The notes: generated by a model not told the origin, from the letters alone. Positions 44,796 to 61,901 are shown, numbered from the whole stretch's first letter. The stretch is DNA of 63,330 nt, filler included, from Stramenopiles sp. TOSAG23-2 (GCA_900128395.1; 44 parts of 44 records of this genome joined end to end with filler, not necessarily neighbours in it); one strand, 5' to 3'. Made by a program: numbers and translations.

Positions 44796-46134
44796 AGCAT
44801 TGCCTTGAACGTACTTTCTCGACCAGTAATAGAGCAAGAGGCGTCACGTCGTCGGCGTTTGCTTGGTTTGCCTGGAGAAGAGACGATCAATTTATTCTGC
44901 GAGGTAGCGGAGATGCCATACAATTTGACCGCAAATTGTACACAAGGAAACACTACATATACATGCAGTGGAGAAACTAAAGGCTCTATCACTGTAAAAT
45001 GTCCTGTCCTGGTCGTTCGTCCAGTTTGTGTTTACTGGAACACTAATAGTAAAACTTGGGCTACAGATGGATGTTCAGTGAAGCAGGATCGAGGAAATGA
45101 AGTAGTTTGTGCATGTAACCATTTGACAGACTTTGGATCTAAATTTAAAACAGTATTTTCAGAAACAGAATCGATCATCGCAATGGATGCATTAAACCCG
45201 GAAAAGGGTGGCAAAAAAATTGAAAATTTTGATGACTTTGCTAATCTAGTTGCTCAAAATTCTTTAGTGTTTATAACCGTCCTAATTCTCTTAATCGTTA
45301 TCTTTTGCGCTTTGTTCCAAGGACATTACAAAGATACTCACGAAAAGTGGAGGCTTCAATTGAAAACAGAAAAGTACCGAAAGTTACTATTCTCGTCATC
45401 AAAAGGAATTGTGCATGATCCATCAAAACAGCCAGATTTTTCAAAAGAAAAATTATGGAATCAGTTTATTTTTGGCATGAAGAATTTCCATCCTGTGCTA
45501 AGCATTTATTACACGCACTCGTTGACTATCTCTCGGCCTCAGCGTATAATGGCATTGATGGTTGTCTTGCTGGTCAATATGTTTTTTGATGCTATGTTTT
45601 TTCAAGTCAGGCACCCGGATCCAAATGCAACGGCTGATCCATTTGAAGCGTTGGTATTTGCTATGATTATCTCATTAGTCAATGTTCCCATTTGCAAATT
45701 TTTTGAATCAATGTATATTTTAGCAGGGTCGGCATATGCAGCTCATGTTCGTTATGAAGTTGAGGCTGAATTTGCTTTAAAAACAAAAGGATTAACATTT
45801 CTTGCTAAAGTAAGGCGACGAATAAAAACGAAAAGAGATGCTGAAGATTACATCCGCCTTGTGGAAGGATATTCTCGAGTAGTAGAGAAAAAGCTAGTCA
45901 AGGCACGCACACAGCAGATCATTGCTCCAACTGAAACTCCCCATGCAAAAAGCGCTAGGAAGAGGATTACAGCTTTACGGGAGGATTACAAAGTTCTATT
46001 TGCTCATAAAAAAGCTGCCTATAAGAAATATTTTGTAAAATTGAAAGACGAGAAAGTCTATCAAGGAAGAGTTACATACGCTTTGTGGGAGGAAGCAAAA
46101 GCAGAATTGCAAGCTGCAAAACGTTGTTGTGTAA
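44796..46134 (+). CDS. GPS/GAIN-domain polycystin-1-like membrane protein, internal fragment
   Basis: CVYWN...WATDGC...VCACNHLTDF; first TM helix; HPVLSIY...SRPQRI as in PKD1-like TM2. Confidence 0.85.
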
Positions 46135-52907: not shown

Positions 52908-53437
52908 TGTGAACGAATTAATTTGTGTACTAAGCGTTTTCTTGTTGAATTTGTGTACTAAGCGTTATCTTGTTCCGTGTTTACCCGTTCTACCTAATAG
53001 ACCTAAACATTTAACCTAGTCACCTGGAAGCCCCCCTTTTTTTCCTTTTTTTATCTATACGAGGTCGTATGTCTGTTCAAGTATATACGTTATAATATAT
53101 AAATTATTGTCATTTGATAGTGAGATCTGGAGTTGGTCAAAGCCAATTTATAAAAAAATAATGACTAATGGCCACGAGATAGCATGGTTACAATTTGCTA
53201 GCTCTAGCTGGGCTAGCATATACACACCAATAGTAATGCTATTCCATGCTAAGTTCAAAATTGGCCGTACCAGACACACAGCATGGGCTAAAAAACATCA
53301 ATAAATTATATNNNNNNNNNNNNNNNNNNNNNNNNNNNNNNNNNNNNNNNNNNNNTTAATTAATTAANNNNNNNNNNNNNNNNNNNNNNNNNNNNNNNNN
53401 NNNNNNNNNNNTAGACAAGTGGAATAGCCAATTAGGT

Positions 53438-54744
53438 ATGAAGTCAAGTTGGGTAACATTTCAATGGCAACAACAACAAACAAAATGTCATAAAACTGCA
53501 TTAAAGACTATGACGTCATTTGTTGCTGACGATGTAAAAAAACATATGCGTAAAATAAGAGATGACGCTAAATTGTATAATAATGAAACCATGAAGGAGG
53601 CATCTCAAAAATACCAAAGGGGCAGATTAGAGAAACATAATAAGCAGATTTTGAAACGATTGTTTCTTACAACAAGACTGTTAGACCATTATAAAAAATC
53701 AAGCTGTAGTGTCATACCTACTATAACTCCAACCAATGAAATCTGGTTAGGGCAACATAAACGTGGATATGAAGCTTTGGTATTTAAATGCAGGAAATAT
53801 AATTCTCAAAATTTAAAACTACATAAAGCAGAGATCAACGTATTAAAACATTTACAAAATGTACATCCACATATTATAAAACTCGTAGATTCAATTGATC
53901 TATTTAATATTGACACATATCATGGTCGTCGATGCATATTGATGTATGATTATCAAAGCAATGGTAGTTTAGCCGACAGCTTGCCATCTAAAGGTGGCTT
54001 TAAAGAGAACATAGCGCGAACATATTTCACACAAATTACGAATGCTGTTGATTTTTGTCATAGAAATCGTATAACGCATACTGACTTATGCTTGGAAAAT
54101 ATTTATTTAGATCACAATTTTAATGCAAAATTGGGAAGTTTTAAAAGTGCGATATACGGTGGTATTGCTCAAAATTTAAATTGTGCACATGTACAAAATA
54201 ATGAAGTGTACACAATGGATCCAGATATTGATATAAAAAATTGGAAAGGTACATATGATGCTACACAAGGTGATATATGGTCTCTAGGAGTTGTTTGTTT
54301 TGTATTACTCACCGGTTACCCACCATTTAATCGTAGCGCTGGTAAGAATATGTGCTGGTGGATGAATTCATTATTTGAAGGGGAAGCTGGACGTGAACGA
54401 TTTTGGCACAATCAAAAATTAATTGGTTTTAAAGCACATAATGCAATATCATTGCTCGAGCGATTATTGGCAGCTGAACCTAAGAAAAGAATTACCGCAT
54501 ACCAAGCTAAGCATACCAATTGGGTCAAAGAATATGATGTGGCAAAACCATCAACGTTAAAAGCATATATGAAATCTTTTGTTCCCAAATTAAATGGGTT
54601 AGGACTAGACGGCCAAACGTTTCGACAAAATGAAGCGTACGACTCAAGATTAAGTGGCAAAACTGGTACAGAAAAATACGTATACTTATATAAAAACGGT
54701 GTAAAGGATAAAAAGTTTGATAATATTAATCGATCTTCTATTGC
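53438..54744 (+). CDS. CAMK-like protein kinase fold, probable pseudokinase (3' partial)
   Basis: HPHIIKL, GSL, ARTYFTQI, HTDLCLEN, AKLGSF, DIWSLGV..LLTGYPPF. Confidence 0.85.
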
Positions 54745-55105: not shown

Positions 55106-56014
55106 ATGAATGTGTTATCAATCGCAACCGATTGTTCAGGTATTGAAGCACCCATACAAGCTCTCTTACAAATGAAAATCAAATTTAAACATAAATGGTC
55201 ATCAGAAATTGACCCCTTCGCTAGACAATCACTCTTGGCAAACTACAAACCAGAAACATTGTATACAGATATCACACAAAGAGACCACACTAAACTACCA
55301 TACGTTGATATATATGTTTGTGGATTCCCATGTCAACCTTTTTCATCTCTAGGTAAACGTCTTGGAACAAACGACAGCAGAGGAAATATAATGTTACATT
55401 GTATAGAAACCATCAAACACTCTAAACCTACTCTATTTATACTCGAAAACGTAAAGAGATTCAAAACTATTGAAAAATCACAACCATTCAACTTTTTAAT
55501 ACAACAATTAGAATCATTAAACTACAATGTCGCTCATTTTGTACTAAACACCAAAGATTATGGCTTACCACAAAATAGAGAACGAATATACATCATAGGT
55601 ACGTTAAAAACATCAAACTTGACATCACCTGTTAATCCTCCGAAAACAGTTCCCATGAAACCATTAGAAGATGTTTTATCAAATTATTATTTGCAAACTA
55701 CGATATCTCCATCACTTTTGAAAAATTTAAATAGAATAACAGATAAAAGAAATTATATTGTTACACCTTTTACCTTTTCATCTATTTGTACAATCTCACC
55801 AACCCTGACCACAAATTGTATGAAATTCTATACAACACAATATAAAAGATATTTGATAATCAAAGAATGTCTTGCTTTACAAGGATTTCCAATAAACTTT
55901 AAACAAGTTGTTAGTAATTATCAACTTTTTAAACAAATAGGTAACTCTATGAGCGTTCCTGTACTAGTACACATCTTTAAACAAGTAAACGTCAAAAAAC
56001 TCACTAAAAAGTGA
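55106..56014 (+). CDS. C5-cytosine DNA methyltransferase, single-domain, complete
   Basis: TDCSGIEA (I), GFPCQPFS (IV), ILENVK (VI), PQNRERIY (VIII), ECLALQGFP (IX), QIGNSM (X). Confidence 0.95.
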   Translation: MNVLSIATDCSGIEAPIQALLQMKIKFKHKWSSEIDPFARQSLLANYKPETLYTDITQRDHTKLPYVDIYVCGFPCQPFSSLGKRLGTNDSRGNIMLHCIETIKHSKPTLFILENVKRFKTIEKSQPFNFLIQQLESLNYNVAHFVLNTKDYGLPQNRERIYIIGTLKTSNLTSPVNPPKTVPMKPLEDVLSNYYLQTTISPSLLKNLNRITDKRNYIVTPFTFSSICTISPTLTTNCMKFYTTQYKRYLIIKECLALQGFPINFKQVVSNYQLFKQIGNSMSVPVLVHIFKQVNVKKLTKK

Positions 56015-59140: not shown

Positions 59141-59254
59141 ATTGTTTGCTTTTAATGCTTCACCAATACTTTGTACATCAGTAATATTATTATTATTTAG
59201 CCACAATTTCGTTAATGTCTTGTTTGTTTTTAATGCATCACCAATACTTTGTAC
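59141..59254 (-). CDS. RI/NLRC3-type leucine-rich repeats (26-aa unit), out of frame with the upstream ORF
   Basis: Hand translation VQSIGDALKTNKTLTKLWLNNNNITD-VQSIGEALKANN, running off the contig. Confidence 0.85.
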
Positions 59255-60066
59255 AATTTTAATCCATCAATTTTCATACCTTGTAATTTTAATGCACGAT
59301 TGTTTTTACTAAATTCTTCTAACAATTTCATTTCCATTTCCTCCCGATTTGCTTCCGATTTGTCAGATTTATTTTGTAATGCTTCAAGTGTTGCAAACAT
59401 ATCATTTAATTTACAGTTTTCTAAATAATCATTGATATTTCGAATTTGATCTTTGATATTACGATTTTGTGCAATCGTCACTGTACTTAAATCTGCTTGT
59501 AAAATATCAATTGCATTGGTAACATCAATATTAATTTTATCATATTCCTTATGAAATGAAACACCACCAAGTACACGTTTAACTTTACTTTGTTTGGAAT
59601 ATGTTTCAGCCAATTCCTTTAAACGTTGTACATGTTCATTTAATCGATTTAATACTTCAATATGATCTTGGGTAAATGCATTTTTACGATCGAGATGAGC
59701 ATATTCATGGGCACAGATACGAATAATTGTTTCAATACCTTTACATCGAATAGCTGCACGTTTGCATTTTTCTTGGTTGGCATTTTCTGTTAATGCAATT
59801 TCATAAACTGCTGCACATGTTGAGAAAATGAGACCAATAATTGGAGTTGCCGTGATGGTTTTTGCAACAATTGGACCAACTAAATTTGCTGCATTGATTC
59901 CAAGTTCTTTTGCAATATCTGCTACTTGTTTCACATTTTTCAATGTTTTTGTACTAACATCTTTAACATGTTTTGTTGCAACATCTTTCACATTTTTCAA
60001 TGCGTTCGAACCAGCAGTTTTAGCAGTTTTAGCGTGTTTTGTTGCATGATCAACGAATTCCGACAT
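59230..60066 (-). CDS. MLKL N-terminal four-helix-bundle-like protein
   Basis: PIIGLIFSTCAAVYEIA...NQEKCKRAAIRCKGIE...LNRLNEHVQRLKELAETYSKQSKVKRVL...FHKEYDKINIDV..AIDILQ; likely start MSEFVD at 60066. Confidence 0.7.
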   Translation of the reverse strand: MSEFVDHATKHAKTAKTAGSNALKNVKDVATKHVKDVSTKTLKNVKQVADIAKELGINAANLVGPIVAKTITATPIIGLIFSTCAAVYEIALTENANQEKCKRAAIRCKGIETIIRICAHEYAHLDRKNAFTQDHIEVLNRLNEHVQRLKELAETYSKQSKVKRVLGGVSFHKEYDKINIDVTNAIDILQADLSTVTIAQNRNIKDQIRNINDYLENCKLNDMFATLEALQNKSDKSEANREEMEMKLLEEFSKNNRALKLQGMKIDGLKLYKVLVMH

Positions 60067-60571
60067 GTCTTTGTAGTGATGAAAAGTTCTGTTTCTTTTT
60101 TGTTTCAAATAAAATATATTTTCACTTATTGTTTTTGAATATAAAATCGTATTGATTTGTATATTTATGCTTTCGTTTCTTTCTTTTATACAGTACACTT
60201 TTCCCTGGGGTTGCCATGGGCTTGACTTGATCTATTTATTATTTTAGATTAGAAATTAGATTCTATGTCCTTTAATATAGATGTTAGATGTGTGTGCAAT
60301 CCTGGCATCAATCTGGCAATGGTATGTGCATGTAAAAAAATATAAAAGCATGGATTTTTTCATTTTCACAATAACAATATTTTAATTTAGCATGTAAATA
60401 CAATGTAAATGTGCACAGAAAATGATAACAATATCCAAAAAATCCACGTGCGTTGATGGCCAGTCAACGTANNNNNNNNNNNNNNNNNNNNNNNNNNNNN
60501 NNNNNNNNNNNNNNNTTAATTAATTAANNNNNNNNNNNNNNNNNNNNNNNNNNNNNNNNNNNNNNNNNNNN

Positions 60572-61901
60572 GACAAGCGTGACCTGATGCACCTTTGCCA
60601 TTATTACATCGACATTGGCGTTTCCGGCAAAATGTTTCACTGCCATAAGGAAATAATGAATATCCATCATGACAAGTTGCACAGGCTTCCATATTATCTC
60701 CATGACAATGATCTATATTCTTACCAATTTCACCCCCAAAGCATTTACATTGTCGTTTCACACATATATTTGTAACCTTATCAGCGGTTGCAGGTGCTAT
60801 ATGTTTCGCTATTTTATGAGCAACACTTTTGCCTGCTACCTTTAGCGCTTTACCGGCAGAATCTACCATGTTCCACCCATTATGCTTACCGCGTTCTATA
60901 TAATCGTCATCAGTAAATGGTCCATTTGGTGAAGTAGTATCACCCCATTTCAAACGAGTTTTAGTTTCACTCAAAGTCATTGTTTTTGTTTCAAGCAATG
61001 CCAACATATATCCATGTTCTCTATCGCATGCTACGCAATGGTAGTGATCATGTTTATGGCAATCCGTGAAATATGCAGCTGTACCATTCTTACATTTACA
61101 TTGATTTTCCTTGCAGTGACTACCATCTAGTTGGACTGATATACCATGTGGTTCGTGATAAAAATCATTACATCGACACCGGTCATTTACATGATGACCT
61201 AGTACAGGCGTATCTGTATGACCTTTTGCATCACATTTAATACATTTATGGTCTTTTAAATAATAACCAGAGTTGCACGCTACACATAATTCGCTGGATG
61301 GACCGATTCCTTTAAAACCAGGACAAGCGTGACCTGATGCACCTTTGCCATTATTACATCGACATTGGCGTTTCCGGCAAAATGTTTCACTGCCATAAGG
61401 AAATAATGAATATCCATCATGACAAGTTGCACAGGCTTCCATATTATCTCCATGACAATGATCTATATTCTTACCAATTTCACCCCCAAAGCATTTACAT
61501 TGTCGTTTCACACATATATTTGTAACCTTATCAGCGGTTGCAGGTGCTATATGTTTCGCTATTTTATGAGCAACACTTTTGCCTGCTACCTTTAGCGCTT
61601 TACCGGCAGAATCTACCATGTTCCACCCATTATGCTTACCGCGTTCTATATAATCGTCATCAGTAAATGGTCCATTTGGTGAAGTAGTATCACCCCATTT
61701 CAAACGAGTTTTAGTTTCACTCAAAGTCATTGTTTTTGTTTCAAGCAATGCCAACATATATCCATGTTCTCTATCGCATGCTACGCAATGGTAGTGATCA
61801 TGTTTATGGCAATCCGTGAAATATGCAGCTGTACCATTCTTACATTTACATTGATTTTCCTTGCAGTGACTACCATCTAGTTGGACTGATATACCATGTG
61901 G
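60572..61901 (-). CDS. Cys-rich furin/EGF-like repeat surface protein containing a 750-bp-period duplication
   Basis: CxCxNG..C..CxxCxxGYxL repeats; 60572-61151 matches 61322-61901 and the frame is preserved. Confidence 0.75.

What the first reader, a model, noticed from the sequence alone, without database searches (positions are those of the whole stretch)
59141..60066. MLKL-like cell-death domain abutting RI-type LRRs: candidate NLR-like immune protein in a protist
Seen: a 278-aa ORF with a four-helix pattern stops at 59230. From 59254 the -1 frame, missing from the ORF track, reads as 26-aa RI-type LRRs to the contig end; that frame has a stop at 59267-59269. Known: MLKL, RPW8 and HeLo-like bundles are membrane-disrupting effectors, and RI-type LRRs are sensor modules of animal NLRs. 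Inference: one effector-plus-sensor gene, with a middle section (possibly an NTPase or kinase) lost by deletion or chimerism.
Basis: partly seen in the sequence, partly recalled or inferred. Interest (0 to 1): 0.72.

Follow-up and report, generated by a model that had tools for sequence, protein, structure and literature searches.

The report
Protist MLKL-like kinase gene with LRRs
This short contig holds the start of a marine protist gene that elsewhere joins a necroptosis-type membrane-killing domain, a working-looking kinase and immune-receptor-type leucine-rich repeats in one protein, but here the middle of the gene has been skipped, probably when the contig was assembled.

Summary
A 278-codon minus-strand ORF (60066 to 59233, stop at 59230-59232) is followed, in another frame, by 39 codons of 26-residue RI-type LRRs that run to the end of a 1331-base contig. 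[quoted passage not shown]

A 98%-identical gene model, P0045 (824 aa), shows the native order. It is a four-helix bundle, brace, TKL kinase with catalytic motifs intact, K/E-rich coiled coil, then the conserved cap that opens this organism's LRR cassette.

The window contig leaves that gene after codon 271, at 59253-59255. It lands out of frame in an internal LRR unit and skips at least 516 codons. Other datasets carry the unskipped form.

The join itself is not a working fusion. It is most likely an assembly or amplification artefact, less likely a dead allele.

In related contigs the same LRR cassette follows TIR-helicase, kinase-TIR, ankyrin and MLKL_N heads. That suggests a combinatorial receptor repertoire, but its function is inferred only.

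The parts
59887..60066 (-). Codons 1-60: Lys-rich N-terminal extension with an internal repeat of about 22 residues (ATKHAKTAK...NVKDV / ATKHVKDVS...NVKQV)
   Evidence: Translation. Modelled as a helix at low confidence, pLDDT 38-53. The start codon is supported by the N-termini of relatives.
59482..59874 (-). Codons 65-195: MLKL_N / HeLo-type four-helix bundle, carrying the family motif NQxKCKRAAxRCKGIETIIRICAHEY
   Evidence: Pfam MLKL_N on residues 79-190, 26.6 bits. The family profile against human MLKL N-terminal-domain structures gives E 7.9e-10. Model pLDDT is 85-98 here. VIA scores are AtMLKL3 Z 10.6, human MLKL Z 10.1 and mouse MLKL Z 9.8. Invariant residues are listed.
59254..59481 (-). 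Codons 196-271: first part of the helical brace that leads to the kinase in the native gene
   Evidence: Identical to P0003 except C218S, and to P0045, up to residue 271. The relatives continue LL(L/M)EKHR....
59253..59255 (.). Breakpoint: 2-3 bases (TGT on the minus strand) that fit both parents
   Evidence: Gene-type contigs of runs X1 and X4 align only down to 59253 (table 8). LRR-type contigs have loose ends behind 59253 or 59254 (table 7). LRR units of the loci align up to 59255.
59141..59253 (-). About 1.5 RI-type LRR units (78 bases, 26 residues each), read in the frame shifted by one base, cut by the contig end
   Evidence: Summed contig depth here is 10^3 to 10^5, against about 8-9.5 on the gene in the same runs (table 2).
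59230..59232 (-). TAA that ends the gene's frame seven codons after the breakpoint (YKVLVMH*), a by-product of the join
   Evidence: Those seven residues are absent from all relatives.
59267..59269 (-). TGA in the LRR frame just upstream of the breakpoint, so neither frame is open across the join
60067..60471 (-). AT-rich 5' flank of the gene, variable between strains (several small indels)
   Evidence: table 4, shows indels at 60333-60429 in runs X4 and X7.

Best explanation
The contig carries the promoter side and the first 271 codons of a gene of an AT-rich marine microbial eukaryote. The native product, read from a 98%-identical gene model, has this order:
- a Lys-rich N-terminal extension;
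- an MLKL-type four-helix bundle, the membrane-permeabilising 'executioner' fold;
- a helical brace;
- a TKL-group protein kinase with all catalytic motifs;
- a K/E-rich coiled coil of about 160 residues;
- a conserved cap followed by RI-type LRRs.

In the window, the sequence jumps after codon 271 into an internal LRR unit. That skips at least 516 codons and shifts the frame, so no 4HB-LRR protein can be made from it. The jump is most likely an assembly or amplification artefact at a very high-copy repeat. I put this at roughly 60:40 against a real, dead deletion allele of the source strain.

Proposed mechanism (inferred, not shown): the LRRs bind a trigger. This activates the in-cis kinase, which would play the part RIPK3 plays for MLKL. 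Phosphorylation loosens the brace, and the released four-helix bundle oligomerises and permeabilises a membrane, giving cell death or another membrane response to infection.
For: Shown:
- MLKL_N homology. Pfam scores 26.6 bits for the ORF and 37.4 and 36.8 bits for P0001 and P0002. 26 of 38 family members match at E<=0.001. The family profile hits seven MLKL sequences in PDB at E 7.9e-10 to 1.1e-6, and the next unrelated hit is at E 0.009.
- Fold. The top VIA hit is AtMLKL3 6ka4 (Z 10.6, rmsd 2.5 A, 119 residues). The top Foldseek hit is MLKL 6zvo, with probability 1.00 but E only 0.05.
- Native continuation. P0003 is 225/227 identical and P0045 is 265/271 identical, both up to residue 271 exactly. 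Both then read LLEKHREMANAK... into a kinase. P0001, P0004, P0005, P0048 and P0058 do the same.
- Kinase. In P0045 the Pfam kinase spans 358-620 with GRGSFG, HRD, DFG and SPE. For P0001 the nearest solved kinases are CTR1, RIPK4, ZAK and RIPK1.
- LRR end. The last 38 residues of P0045 are the cap ..KWEKEFDGKTEVxL..KNLTDEDALAIGELLKTNN. That cap opens the LRR arrays of L004, L012, L013, L014, L015 and L010b. Residues 701-824 of P0045 align over 112-143 columns with the pre-LRR region of L012, L014, L004 and L013, E 1e-15 to 1e-22.
- Non-native join. No frame is open across it. The cap is absent. Contigs of two DNA runs (X1 2011 nt, X4 1065 nt) stop matching at 59253 while 1280 and 239 more of their own bases remain. 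LRR-type contigs diverge at 59253/59254 in the other direction. The LRR part has 10^3 to 10^5 summed depth against 8-9.5 on the gene.

Inferred: every step of the mechanism, by analogy with MLKL, AtMLKL and Pm13 (passages read in 10.1101/681015 and PMC10951266).
Against: - The LRR end of the native gene rests on a single gene model, P0045, which stops inside the cap before any full LRR unit. Its exon structure could not be seen.
- Whether the window's LRR units come from this gene's own 3' end or from another of the many LRR genes cannot be told.
- Pfam MLKL_N is 0.4 bits under the gathering score for the window ORF itself, and P0045 gave no MLKL_N row at E<=0.01.
- The fold match does not stand above unrelated helical bundles. 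A designed protein scores Z 10.5, and no Foldseek match reaches E<=0.001.
- A contig that ends a hundred bases into a repeat is also what a true adjacency would give.
- A natural ORF with MLKL_N directly followed by cap and LRRs exists (L015), so direct 4HB-LRR genes are not impossible in this lineage.
- No functional data exist for any member.
Confidence: 0.72

Rival explanations
1. The join is real DNA: a strain-specific internal deletion or illegitimate recombination between the brace region and an LRR unit, leaving a dead allele (pseudogene).
For: - Related LRR-cassette genes do decay. L014 has an in-frame TAA inside an LRR, and L015 has two one-base frameshifts.
- The brace segment EEFSKNNRALKLQGMKID aligns weakly in register with an LRR unit, with a one-base gap that would account for the frameshift. 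That could favour recombination.
- Both parts lie on the same strand in head-to-tail order.
- Contigs commonly stop just inside a true neighbouring repeat.
Against: P0003, P0045 and the contigs of runs X1 and X4 carry the uninterrupted form at 98-99.5% identity. The same weak homology and 2-3 base overlap would equally favour template switching in vitro or a wrong path through an assembly graph.
Confidence: 0.28
2. The contig encodes a working short protein in which the four-helix bundle is wired directly to LRRs, made through an unusual splice, a programmed frameshift, or a one-base sequencing error.
For: L015:2893-3591 is one ORF holding MLKL_N (family profile E 3.6e-18, Pfam 26.3 bits) followed by cap and LRRs. 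One extra A in the A4 run next to the join would put the LRRs in frame (read).
Against: - The A4 run is the same in the kinase-type gene. Contigs of X1 and X4 align without gaps down to 59253.
- The join lacks the cap that 6 of 14 LRR-bearing ORFs show in full form.
- Of 36 GT/GC-AG pairs that would open a frame, none keeps both the conserved brace residues and a whole LRR unit.
- L015 itself lacks the first helices and is frameshifted.
Confidence: 0.04
3. The native gene is only four-helix bundle plus kinase, as in wheat Pm13. The cap at the end of P0045 would then come from a gene model that wrongly fused a neighbouring LRR gene, and the window's LRR tail would be an unrelated chimeric partner.
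For: - Only one model shows the cap.
- The other relatives with a kinase either stop inside it (P0001, P0003, P0009, P0043, P0048, P0058) or carry other repeats: P0002 has ankyrin, P0008 has WD40 plus ankyrin.
- 0 of the 43 proteins retrieved up to that point (P0001-P0043) contained this LRR type.
Against: - The coiled coil plus cap of P0045 matches, as one block of 112-143 columns, the region that precedes the LRRs inside single ORFs of L012, L014, L004 and L013. So the coiled coil already belongs to the cassette, and it follows the kinase directly.
- In those loci the cassette never starts a gene. It always follows a head domain.
Confidence: 0.12
4. The protein is real, but the four-helix bundle is not a death executioner here. 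It may tether the kinase to a membrane or the cytoskeleton, so the protein is an ordinary LRR-kinase signalling component.
For: Plant MLKL immunity can be separated from cell death, and AtMLKLs associate with microtubules (abstract and passages of 10.1101/681015). Helical bundles are a common arrangement (note).
Against: The sequence-profile link is specifically to the MLKL executioner domain. The same LRR cassette is attached to TIR domains and helicases, which are typical of immune effectors.
Confidence: 0.25

Closest known systems
Pm13 / AelMLKL of Aegilops longissima (wheat powdery-mildew resistance kinase fusion protein)
   Same: N-terminal MLKL_NTD four-helix bundle, helical brace, and a C-terminal kinase that keeps the residues needed for catalysis (passages read in PMC10951266; motifs in P0045, P0001 and P0002).
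   Different: The passages read for Pm13 describe no LRRs or other repeat domain after the kinase. The protist protein adds a coiled coil and an LRR cassette, and its paralogues add ankyrin or WD40 repeats. Sequence identity to plant or animal MLKL bundles is only about 8-16%.
Animal MLKL (necroptosis executioner) with RIPK3
   Same: Four-helix bundle, brace and TKL-group kinase fold in the same order. The profile-to-PDB match is E 8e-10. The kinase's nearest solved relatives include RIPK1 and RIPK4.
   Different: MLKL is a pseudokinase activated in trans by RIPK3 (passages read in PMC12881547). Here the kinase looks active and sits on the same chain, and a sensor-type LRR domain is attached.
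Plant MLKLs (AtMLKL1-3)
   Same: Best structural match of the bundle: 6ka4, Z 10.6, rmsd 2.5 A over 119 residues. The layout is HeLo, brace, kinase-like domain.
   Different: The AtMLKL kinase-like domain lacks canonical catalytic residues and is followed by a serine-rich tail, not LRRs (passages of 10.1101/681015).
NLRs with HeLo-, RPW8- or CC-type heads (fungal HeLo-NLRs, plant RNLs and CNLs)
   Same: A membrane-targeting helical-bundle effector at the N-terminus and a repeat sensor at the C-terminus of one chain (passages of PMC12881547). The LRRs are of the RI type used by animal NLRs.
   Different: There is no NACHT or NB-ARC NTPase. A protein kinase and a coiled coil occupy the middle.

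Membership tests
Pfam PF22215 MLKL_N (MLKL/HeLo-type four-helix bundle) | Score at or above the curated gathering cut-off (27 bits) | tested here: inconclusive
   The window ORF scores 26.6 bits, E 4.8e-6, which is 0.4 bits short. Close relatives pass: P0001 37.4, P0002 36.8, P0018 43.7 bits. 26 of 38 family members match at E<=0.001, best 6.4e-43.
Pfam PF22215 MLKL_N (MLKL/HeLo-type four-helix bundle) | Sequence-profile homology to solved MLKL N-terminal domains | tested here: met
   The profile of 38 family members against PDB gives human MLKL N-terminal-domain chains at E 7.9e-10 to 2.7e-9 and mouse MLKL at 1.1e-6, over about 115 residues. The next hits, at E>=0.009, are ankyrin repeats from the long members.
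Pfam PF22215 MLKL_N (MLKL/HeLo-type four-helix bundle) | Four-helix-bundle fold superposable on MLKL | tested here: inconclusive
   MLKL chains rank first: VIA gives 6ka4 Z 10.6, 6ux8 Z 10.1 and 4btf Z 9.8; Foldseek gives 6zvo probability 1.00, TM 0.64 on the target. But unrelated bundles tie (8tlp Z 10.5), and no Foldseek E is at or below 0.001.
MLKL proper (bundle-brace-pseudokinase) | C-terminal kinase-like domain after a helical brace | tested here: met
   Not present on the window contig. It is present in the 98-99% identical P0003 and P0045, and in P0001, P0002, P0008, P0009, P0048 and P0058.
MLKL proper (bundle-brace-pseudokinase) | The kinase domain is catalytically dead (lacks HRD/DFG-type residues) | tested here: not met
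   P0045 has GRGSFG, HRD, DFG and SPE. P0001 and P0002 have HRDLK..N and DFG. The protein is therefore an MLKL-like kinase fusion, not an MLKL orthologue.
NLR (NOD-like receptor) | Central STAND NTPase (NACHT or NB-ARC) | tested here: not met
   No NTPase family appears in the ORF, in P0045, or in the 11 relatives scanned. The middle domain is a protein kinase.
NLR (NOD-like receptor) | C-terminal LRR sensor domain | tested here: inconclusive
   The window has 1.5 units, out of frame. P0045 reaches only the cap of the LRR cassette. Full arrays of the same cassette in the loci hit RI, NOD2 and NLRP LRRs.
RI-type (ribonuclease-inhibitor-like) LRR | Repeat of about 24-29 residues with the LxxLxLxxNxI...L..aLk.N..L pattern; matches to RI-like LRR models and structures | tested here: met
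   The period is 26 residues, 78 bases. The tail gives LRR_6 and LRR_4. For L013 and L001, phmmer finds ribonuclease inhibitor at E 6.6e-14 and 4.4e-11, and 5irl/5irm at about 1e-15. That 5irl/5irm are NOD2 is recalled; the table calls them 'Uncharacterized protein'.
This lineage's LRR cassette (coiled coil, cap, LRRs, conserved tail) | The array is opened by the cap ..KWEKEFDGKTxVDL..KNLTDEDALAIGELLKTNN | tested here: not met
   The cap is present in 6 of the 14 locus ORFs examined (L004, L010b, L012, L013, L014, L015), with partial forms in L008 and L016, and in P0045. The window's LRRs start inside a canonical unit (VQSIGDALK) with no cap.

The most novel reading that the evidence does not exclude
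This protist lineage runs an innate-immune receptor repertoire built on one exchangeable sensor cassette (coiled coil, cap, RI-type LRRs). That cassette is grafted onto alternative heads: a TIR-helicase head, a helicase head, a kinase-TIR head, an ankyrin head, and a head that is an MLKL-type executioner plus an active RIPK-like kinase. The last would be a whole necroptosis-like pathway (sensor, kinase and pore-former) fused in a single polypeptide of a unicellular eukaryote, with a kinase or a helicase taking the place of the STAND NTPase of NLRs.
Probability: 0.35. Interest if true: 0.8.

Novelty: new variant of a known kind. Interest (0 to 1): 0.62.

Why it matters
MLKL-type executioner domains are known from animals, plants and fungi. 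They are paired there with a pseudokinase (MLKL, AtMLKL), an active kinase (Pm13) or an NLR NTPase.

A unicellular marine eukaryote with bundle, active TKL kinase and NLR-type LRRs in one chain would give a self-contained, testable model. It could show how ligand sensing, phosphorylation and membrane permeabilisation are coupled. It would also push necroptosis-like logic outside multicellular lineages.

The shared LRR cassette on TIR, helicase, kinase and MLKL_N heads points to domain shuffling as the generator of receptor diversity in protists.

My searches of the held library found no description of a bundle-kinase-LRR protein or of this cassette. Those were a few keyword searches, not an exhaustive survey.

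There is also a practical lesson. In fragmentary assemblies, contig ends inside high-copy LRR repeats can fake domain adjacencies.

Tried and rejected
- Whole genome: none is held for this window.
- Paralogues inside the window: tblastn found none, for either the ORF or the LRR tail.
- Intron rescue of the join: 36 GT/GC-AG pairs give an open frame. Each removes conserved coding sequence or part of the LRR, so none is credible. No change of genetic code helps, because both frames carry TAA and TGA stops.
- Bridging contig: none of the listed contigs of four runs (X1, X4, X7 DNA; X16 RNA) spans 59253 with 31 or more bases on both sides. Most of the 577 further pieces were not shown, and contigs cannot prove absence.
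- Expression: an RNA contig of X16 (376 nt, 59345-59720, 2 mismatches) hints that the gene is transcribed. DNA carry-over is not excluded.
- Collection scans:
  - Alignment A1 was too diverse to scan with.
  - With A2, no relative was confirmed in metagenome contigs (589 pattern matches), viral contigs (28) or genome contigs (25).
  - The 30-base string spanning the join has no exact match in genome contigs or viral contigs.
- Protein searches: the 'longer' search found only P0001 and P0002, neither with LRRs. phmmer with an LRR array found 0 of the 43 proteins P0001-P0043. Proteins P0044-P0058 were fetched later; only P0045 was checked, by BLASTP.
- Second structure model: P0001 (546 aa) had pLDDT 66.9, pTM 0.43 and a brace at pLDDT 42-56. 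The domain packing is unreliable, so the model was not searched or used.
- L006: one of the 16 loci found with the 24-base LRR pattern. It is 43% GC, encodes an IclR-type bacterial regulator and has no further LRR unit. I set it aside as an unrelated match.
- Earlier findings of this scan: three look-ups returned nothing.
- N-terminal parts of L001, L013, L005, L003 and L016 matched no Pfam family or solved structure.

Full report
**What the window is.** The 63,330 bases are 44 contigs of about 1.33 kb, ordered by length and joined by N spacers. Pfam hits on their ORFs include Tra1, a Dis3-type RNB nuclease, Memo, a GPS motif and SAP-FKBP. These show an AT-rich eukaryote, 24-41% GC per contig. 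The finding lies in contig 59141-60471.

**The observation.** On the minus strand, an ATG at 60066 opens 278 codons that end at TAA 59232-59230. In the frame shifted by one base, the last 39 codons before the contig end read IVQSIGDALKTNKTLTKLWLNNNNITDVQSIGEALKANN, with TGA at 59269-59267 just upstream. A 33-base core recurs after 78 bases, which none of 100 shuffles reproduced. Pfam gives LRR_4 E 1.5e-4 and LRR_6 E 0.036 for this short piece, and MLKL_N E 4.8e-6 (26.6 bits, cut-off 27) for residues 79-190 of the ORF.

**The N-terminal domain.**
- A search of 1.84 billion representatives found 38 relatives at E<=0.001, 11 of them at <=1e-10. Most are metagenomic fragments.
- Of the 38 sequences aligned (the ORF and 37 relatives), 26 match MLKL_N at E<=0.001.
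- A profile of that alignment hits human MLKL N-terminal-domain structures at E 7.9e-10 to 2.7e-9 and mouse MLKL at 1.1e-6. Nothing unrelated scores better than E 0.009.
- The AlphaFold model (pLDDT 78.2; 85-98 over most of residues 70-260) is a helical bundle followed by a long helix.
- Its best VIA match among 48,161 chains is Arabidopsis MLKL3 (Z 10.6, rmsd 2.5 A, 119 residues). Human and mouse MLKL score Z 10.1 and 9.8. The best Foldseek match is the MLKL executioner domain.
- Unrelated helical bundles tie with these scores, and no Foldseek E reaches 0.001.
- I therefore rest the assignment on sequence profiles and treat the fold only as consistent.

**What the gene really continues into.**
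- P0003 (391 aa) is 225/227 identical to the ORF up to residue 271 (...GMKIDGLKL). It then reads LLEKHREMANAK... into a kinase N-lobe.
- The window instead reads YKVLVMH and stops.
- P0001, P0004, P0005, P0048 and P0058 (60-69% identical to the ORF where measured, for P0001, P0004 and P0005) all continue as P0003 does.
- Looking up P0003's 90% cluster gave P0045, an 824-residue eukaryotic gene model. It is 265/271 identical to the ORF from Met1.
- P0045 carries a protein kinase at residues 358-620 with GRGSFG, HRD, DFG and SPE. A K/E-rich coiled coil follows (about 630-785). The model ends with DIKWEKEFDGKTEVNLDGKNLTDEDALAIGELLKTNN.
- The kinase of the paralogue P0001 is closest to CTR1, RIPK4, ZAK and RIPK1 among solved structures, that is, the TKL group.

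**The LRR cassette.**
- An exact 24-base pattern from the window's LRR unit found 16 metagenome loci. Fifteen of them, at 27-34% GC, hold 2-10 tandem units 74-92% identical to the window's unit. The sixteenth, L006, is a 43% GC bacterial-looking contig that I set aside.
- No other part of the window matches these loci.
- In single ORFs the arrays follow very different heads:
  - L014: TIR plus a ResIII/DEAD helicase. An in-frame TAA lies inside the LRRs.
  - L004: a ResIII/Schlafen-type helicase.
  - L012: kinase plus TIR.
  - L007 and L010: ankyrin repeats.
  - L001, L005 and L013: unknown domains.
  - L015: an MLKL_N domain of this same family (family profile E 3.6e-18; Pfam 26.3 bits).
- Six of the 14 ORFs examined open the array with the cap ..(Y)(M/I)KWEKEFDGKTxVDL..KNLTDEDALAIGELLKTNN, and two more have partial forms. 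This is the sequence at the end of P0045.
- Residues 701-824 of P0045 (coiled coil plus cap) align as one block of 112-143 columns with the pre-LRR regions of L012, L014, L004 and L013, at E 1e-15 to 1e-22.
- L014 and L015 also share the array's C-terminal tail (...NNQLSDNMKSQLKAI.QYK.DGSNGYQQVK).
- Full arrays hit ribonuclease inhibitor, NLRP and Roco LRRs, and 5irl/5irm. I recall 5irl/5irm as NOD2.
- So the native gene is most simply read as bundle, brace, active kinase, coiled coil, cap, LRRs. The cassette is a shared, exchangeable module.

**The join in the window.**
- Contigs of four public runs were laid on the contig.
- A 2011-base contig of X1 and a 1065-base contig of X4 match from 59253 upwards at 99.3-99.5%. 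Each still has 1280 and 239 bases of its own beyond that point.
- LRR-type contigs match 59141 to 59253/59254 and then continue differently.
- Summed depth over 59141-59275 is 10^3 to 10^5, against 8-9.5 on the gene.
- LRR units of the loci align up to 59255, so 2-3 bases (TGT) fit both sides.
- The join is out of frame in both directions. It enters a canonical internal unit without the cap. It skips residues 272 to at least 787 of the native protein.
- The brace segment just before it aligns weakly, in register and with a one-base gap, with an LRR unit. That could have guided template switching in vitro, a wrong assembly path, or illegitimate recombination in vivo.
- I cannot separate these without the source reads. 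Because the uninterrupted form is what three independent sources show, I favour an artefact at about 60:40 over a dead allele.
- A working direct bundle-LRR protein from this contig is unlikely, about 4%. L015 shows that such an arrangement has arisen in the lineage, although that copy lacks the first helices and has two frameshifts.

**How it probably works.** This is inference from MLKL, AtMLKL and Pm13; I read passages of 10.1101/681015, PMC10951266 and PMC12881547. The bundle is held inactive by the brace and the kinase. The LRRs receive a trigger, and the kinase, active and on the same chain, phosphorylates the switch region. The bundle is then released, oligomerises and permeabilises a membrane. 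Paralogues that replace the LRRs by ankyrin (P0002) or WD40 plus ankyrin (P0008) fit a sensor role for the C-terminal repeats. None of this has been tested.

**Comparison and novelty.**
- The closest known protein is wheat Pm13, which has MLKL_NTD, a brace and an active kinase. The passages I read describe no repeat domain for it.
- Animal and plant MLKLs are pseudokinases. This family fails that defining feature, so it is MLKL-like but not an MLKL orthologue.
- It is not an NLR, because it has no STAND NTPase.
- Five keyword searches of the held library found no bundle-kinase-LRR protein and no description of this cassette.
- I rate it a new variant of a known kind. The interest lies in the native architecture and the cassette repertoire, not in the contig's join.

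Noticed in passing
L014:88-3723 (+), L004:1-3057 (+), L012:530-2551 (+): The same LRR cassette follows TIR plus a ResIII/DEAD helicase (L014), a ResIII/Schlafen-type helicase with a weak CHAT match (L004), and kinase plus TIR (L012). These are NLR-like three-part layouts in which a helicase or a kinase stands where the STAND NTPase would be.
   Followed up: partly
L015:2650-3591 (-): One ORF holds an MLKL_N domain of this family, lacking the first helices, followed directly by cap and LRRs. The last two LRR units each carry a one-base frameshift, so this copy looks like a decaying gene.
   Followed up: partly
L014:3043-3045: A single in-frame TAA lies inside an LRR unit (...TNKRLE*LYLDNNNITD...), between the helicase ORF and the rest of the array, which are in the same frame. 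It is either a pseudogene mutation or a sequencing error.
   Followed up: no
window 60572-61901: This contig repeats itself. About 575 bases from 60572 recur from 61326, so the cysteine-rich ORF (CxC-rich, furin/VSP-like look) reads the same roughly 250 residues twice. It is either a tandem gene duplication or an assembly loop.
   Followed up: no
window 59887-60066 (-) and P0006, P0058: The four-helix bundle is preceded by a Lys-rich, probably amphipathic repeat region. It is much longer in the paralogues P0006 and P0058. Run X1 has extra contigs and loose ends there (59906-60040), so copy number or length varies.
   Followed up: no
run X1 and RNA run X16, loose ends behind 59254 (table 7): In one LRR gene, the unit that matches the window is preceded by ...GCGTAAGTTAATATTTTG, then TACAAAG. 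Read as a 23-base GTAAGT...AG intron, splicing would give ...GFAIGDALKTN. This hints at very short introns at the entry of some LRR arrays, but the RNA contig still contains the stretch.
   Followed up: no
P0001, P0043, P0058 C-termini: Three prokaryote-style gene calls of paralogues all leave the kinase after ...EIPWKGL and read VS.. into junk. This fits a conserved intron (GTnAGn would read Val-Ser) in the kinase C-lobe, and it suggests that these contigs are genomic DNA without an intron at codon 271.
   Followed up: no
L006:2281-3090 (+): A 43% GC contig encoding an IclR-family bacterial regulator holds an exact 24-base match to the LRR pattern but no LRR unit. The match is unexplained and is probably chance.
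   Followed up: no
window 55106-56011 (+), 44796-46133 (+), 53414-54742 (+): Other contigs of the window encode a C-5 cytosine DNA methyltransferase (E 2e-60), a protein with a GPS (GPCR proteolysis site) motif, and a further protein kinase.
   Followed up: no
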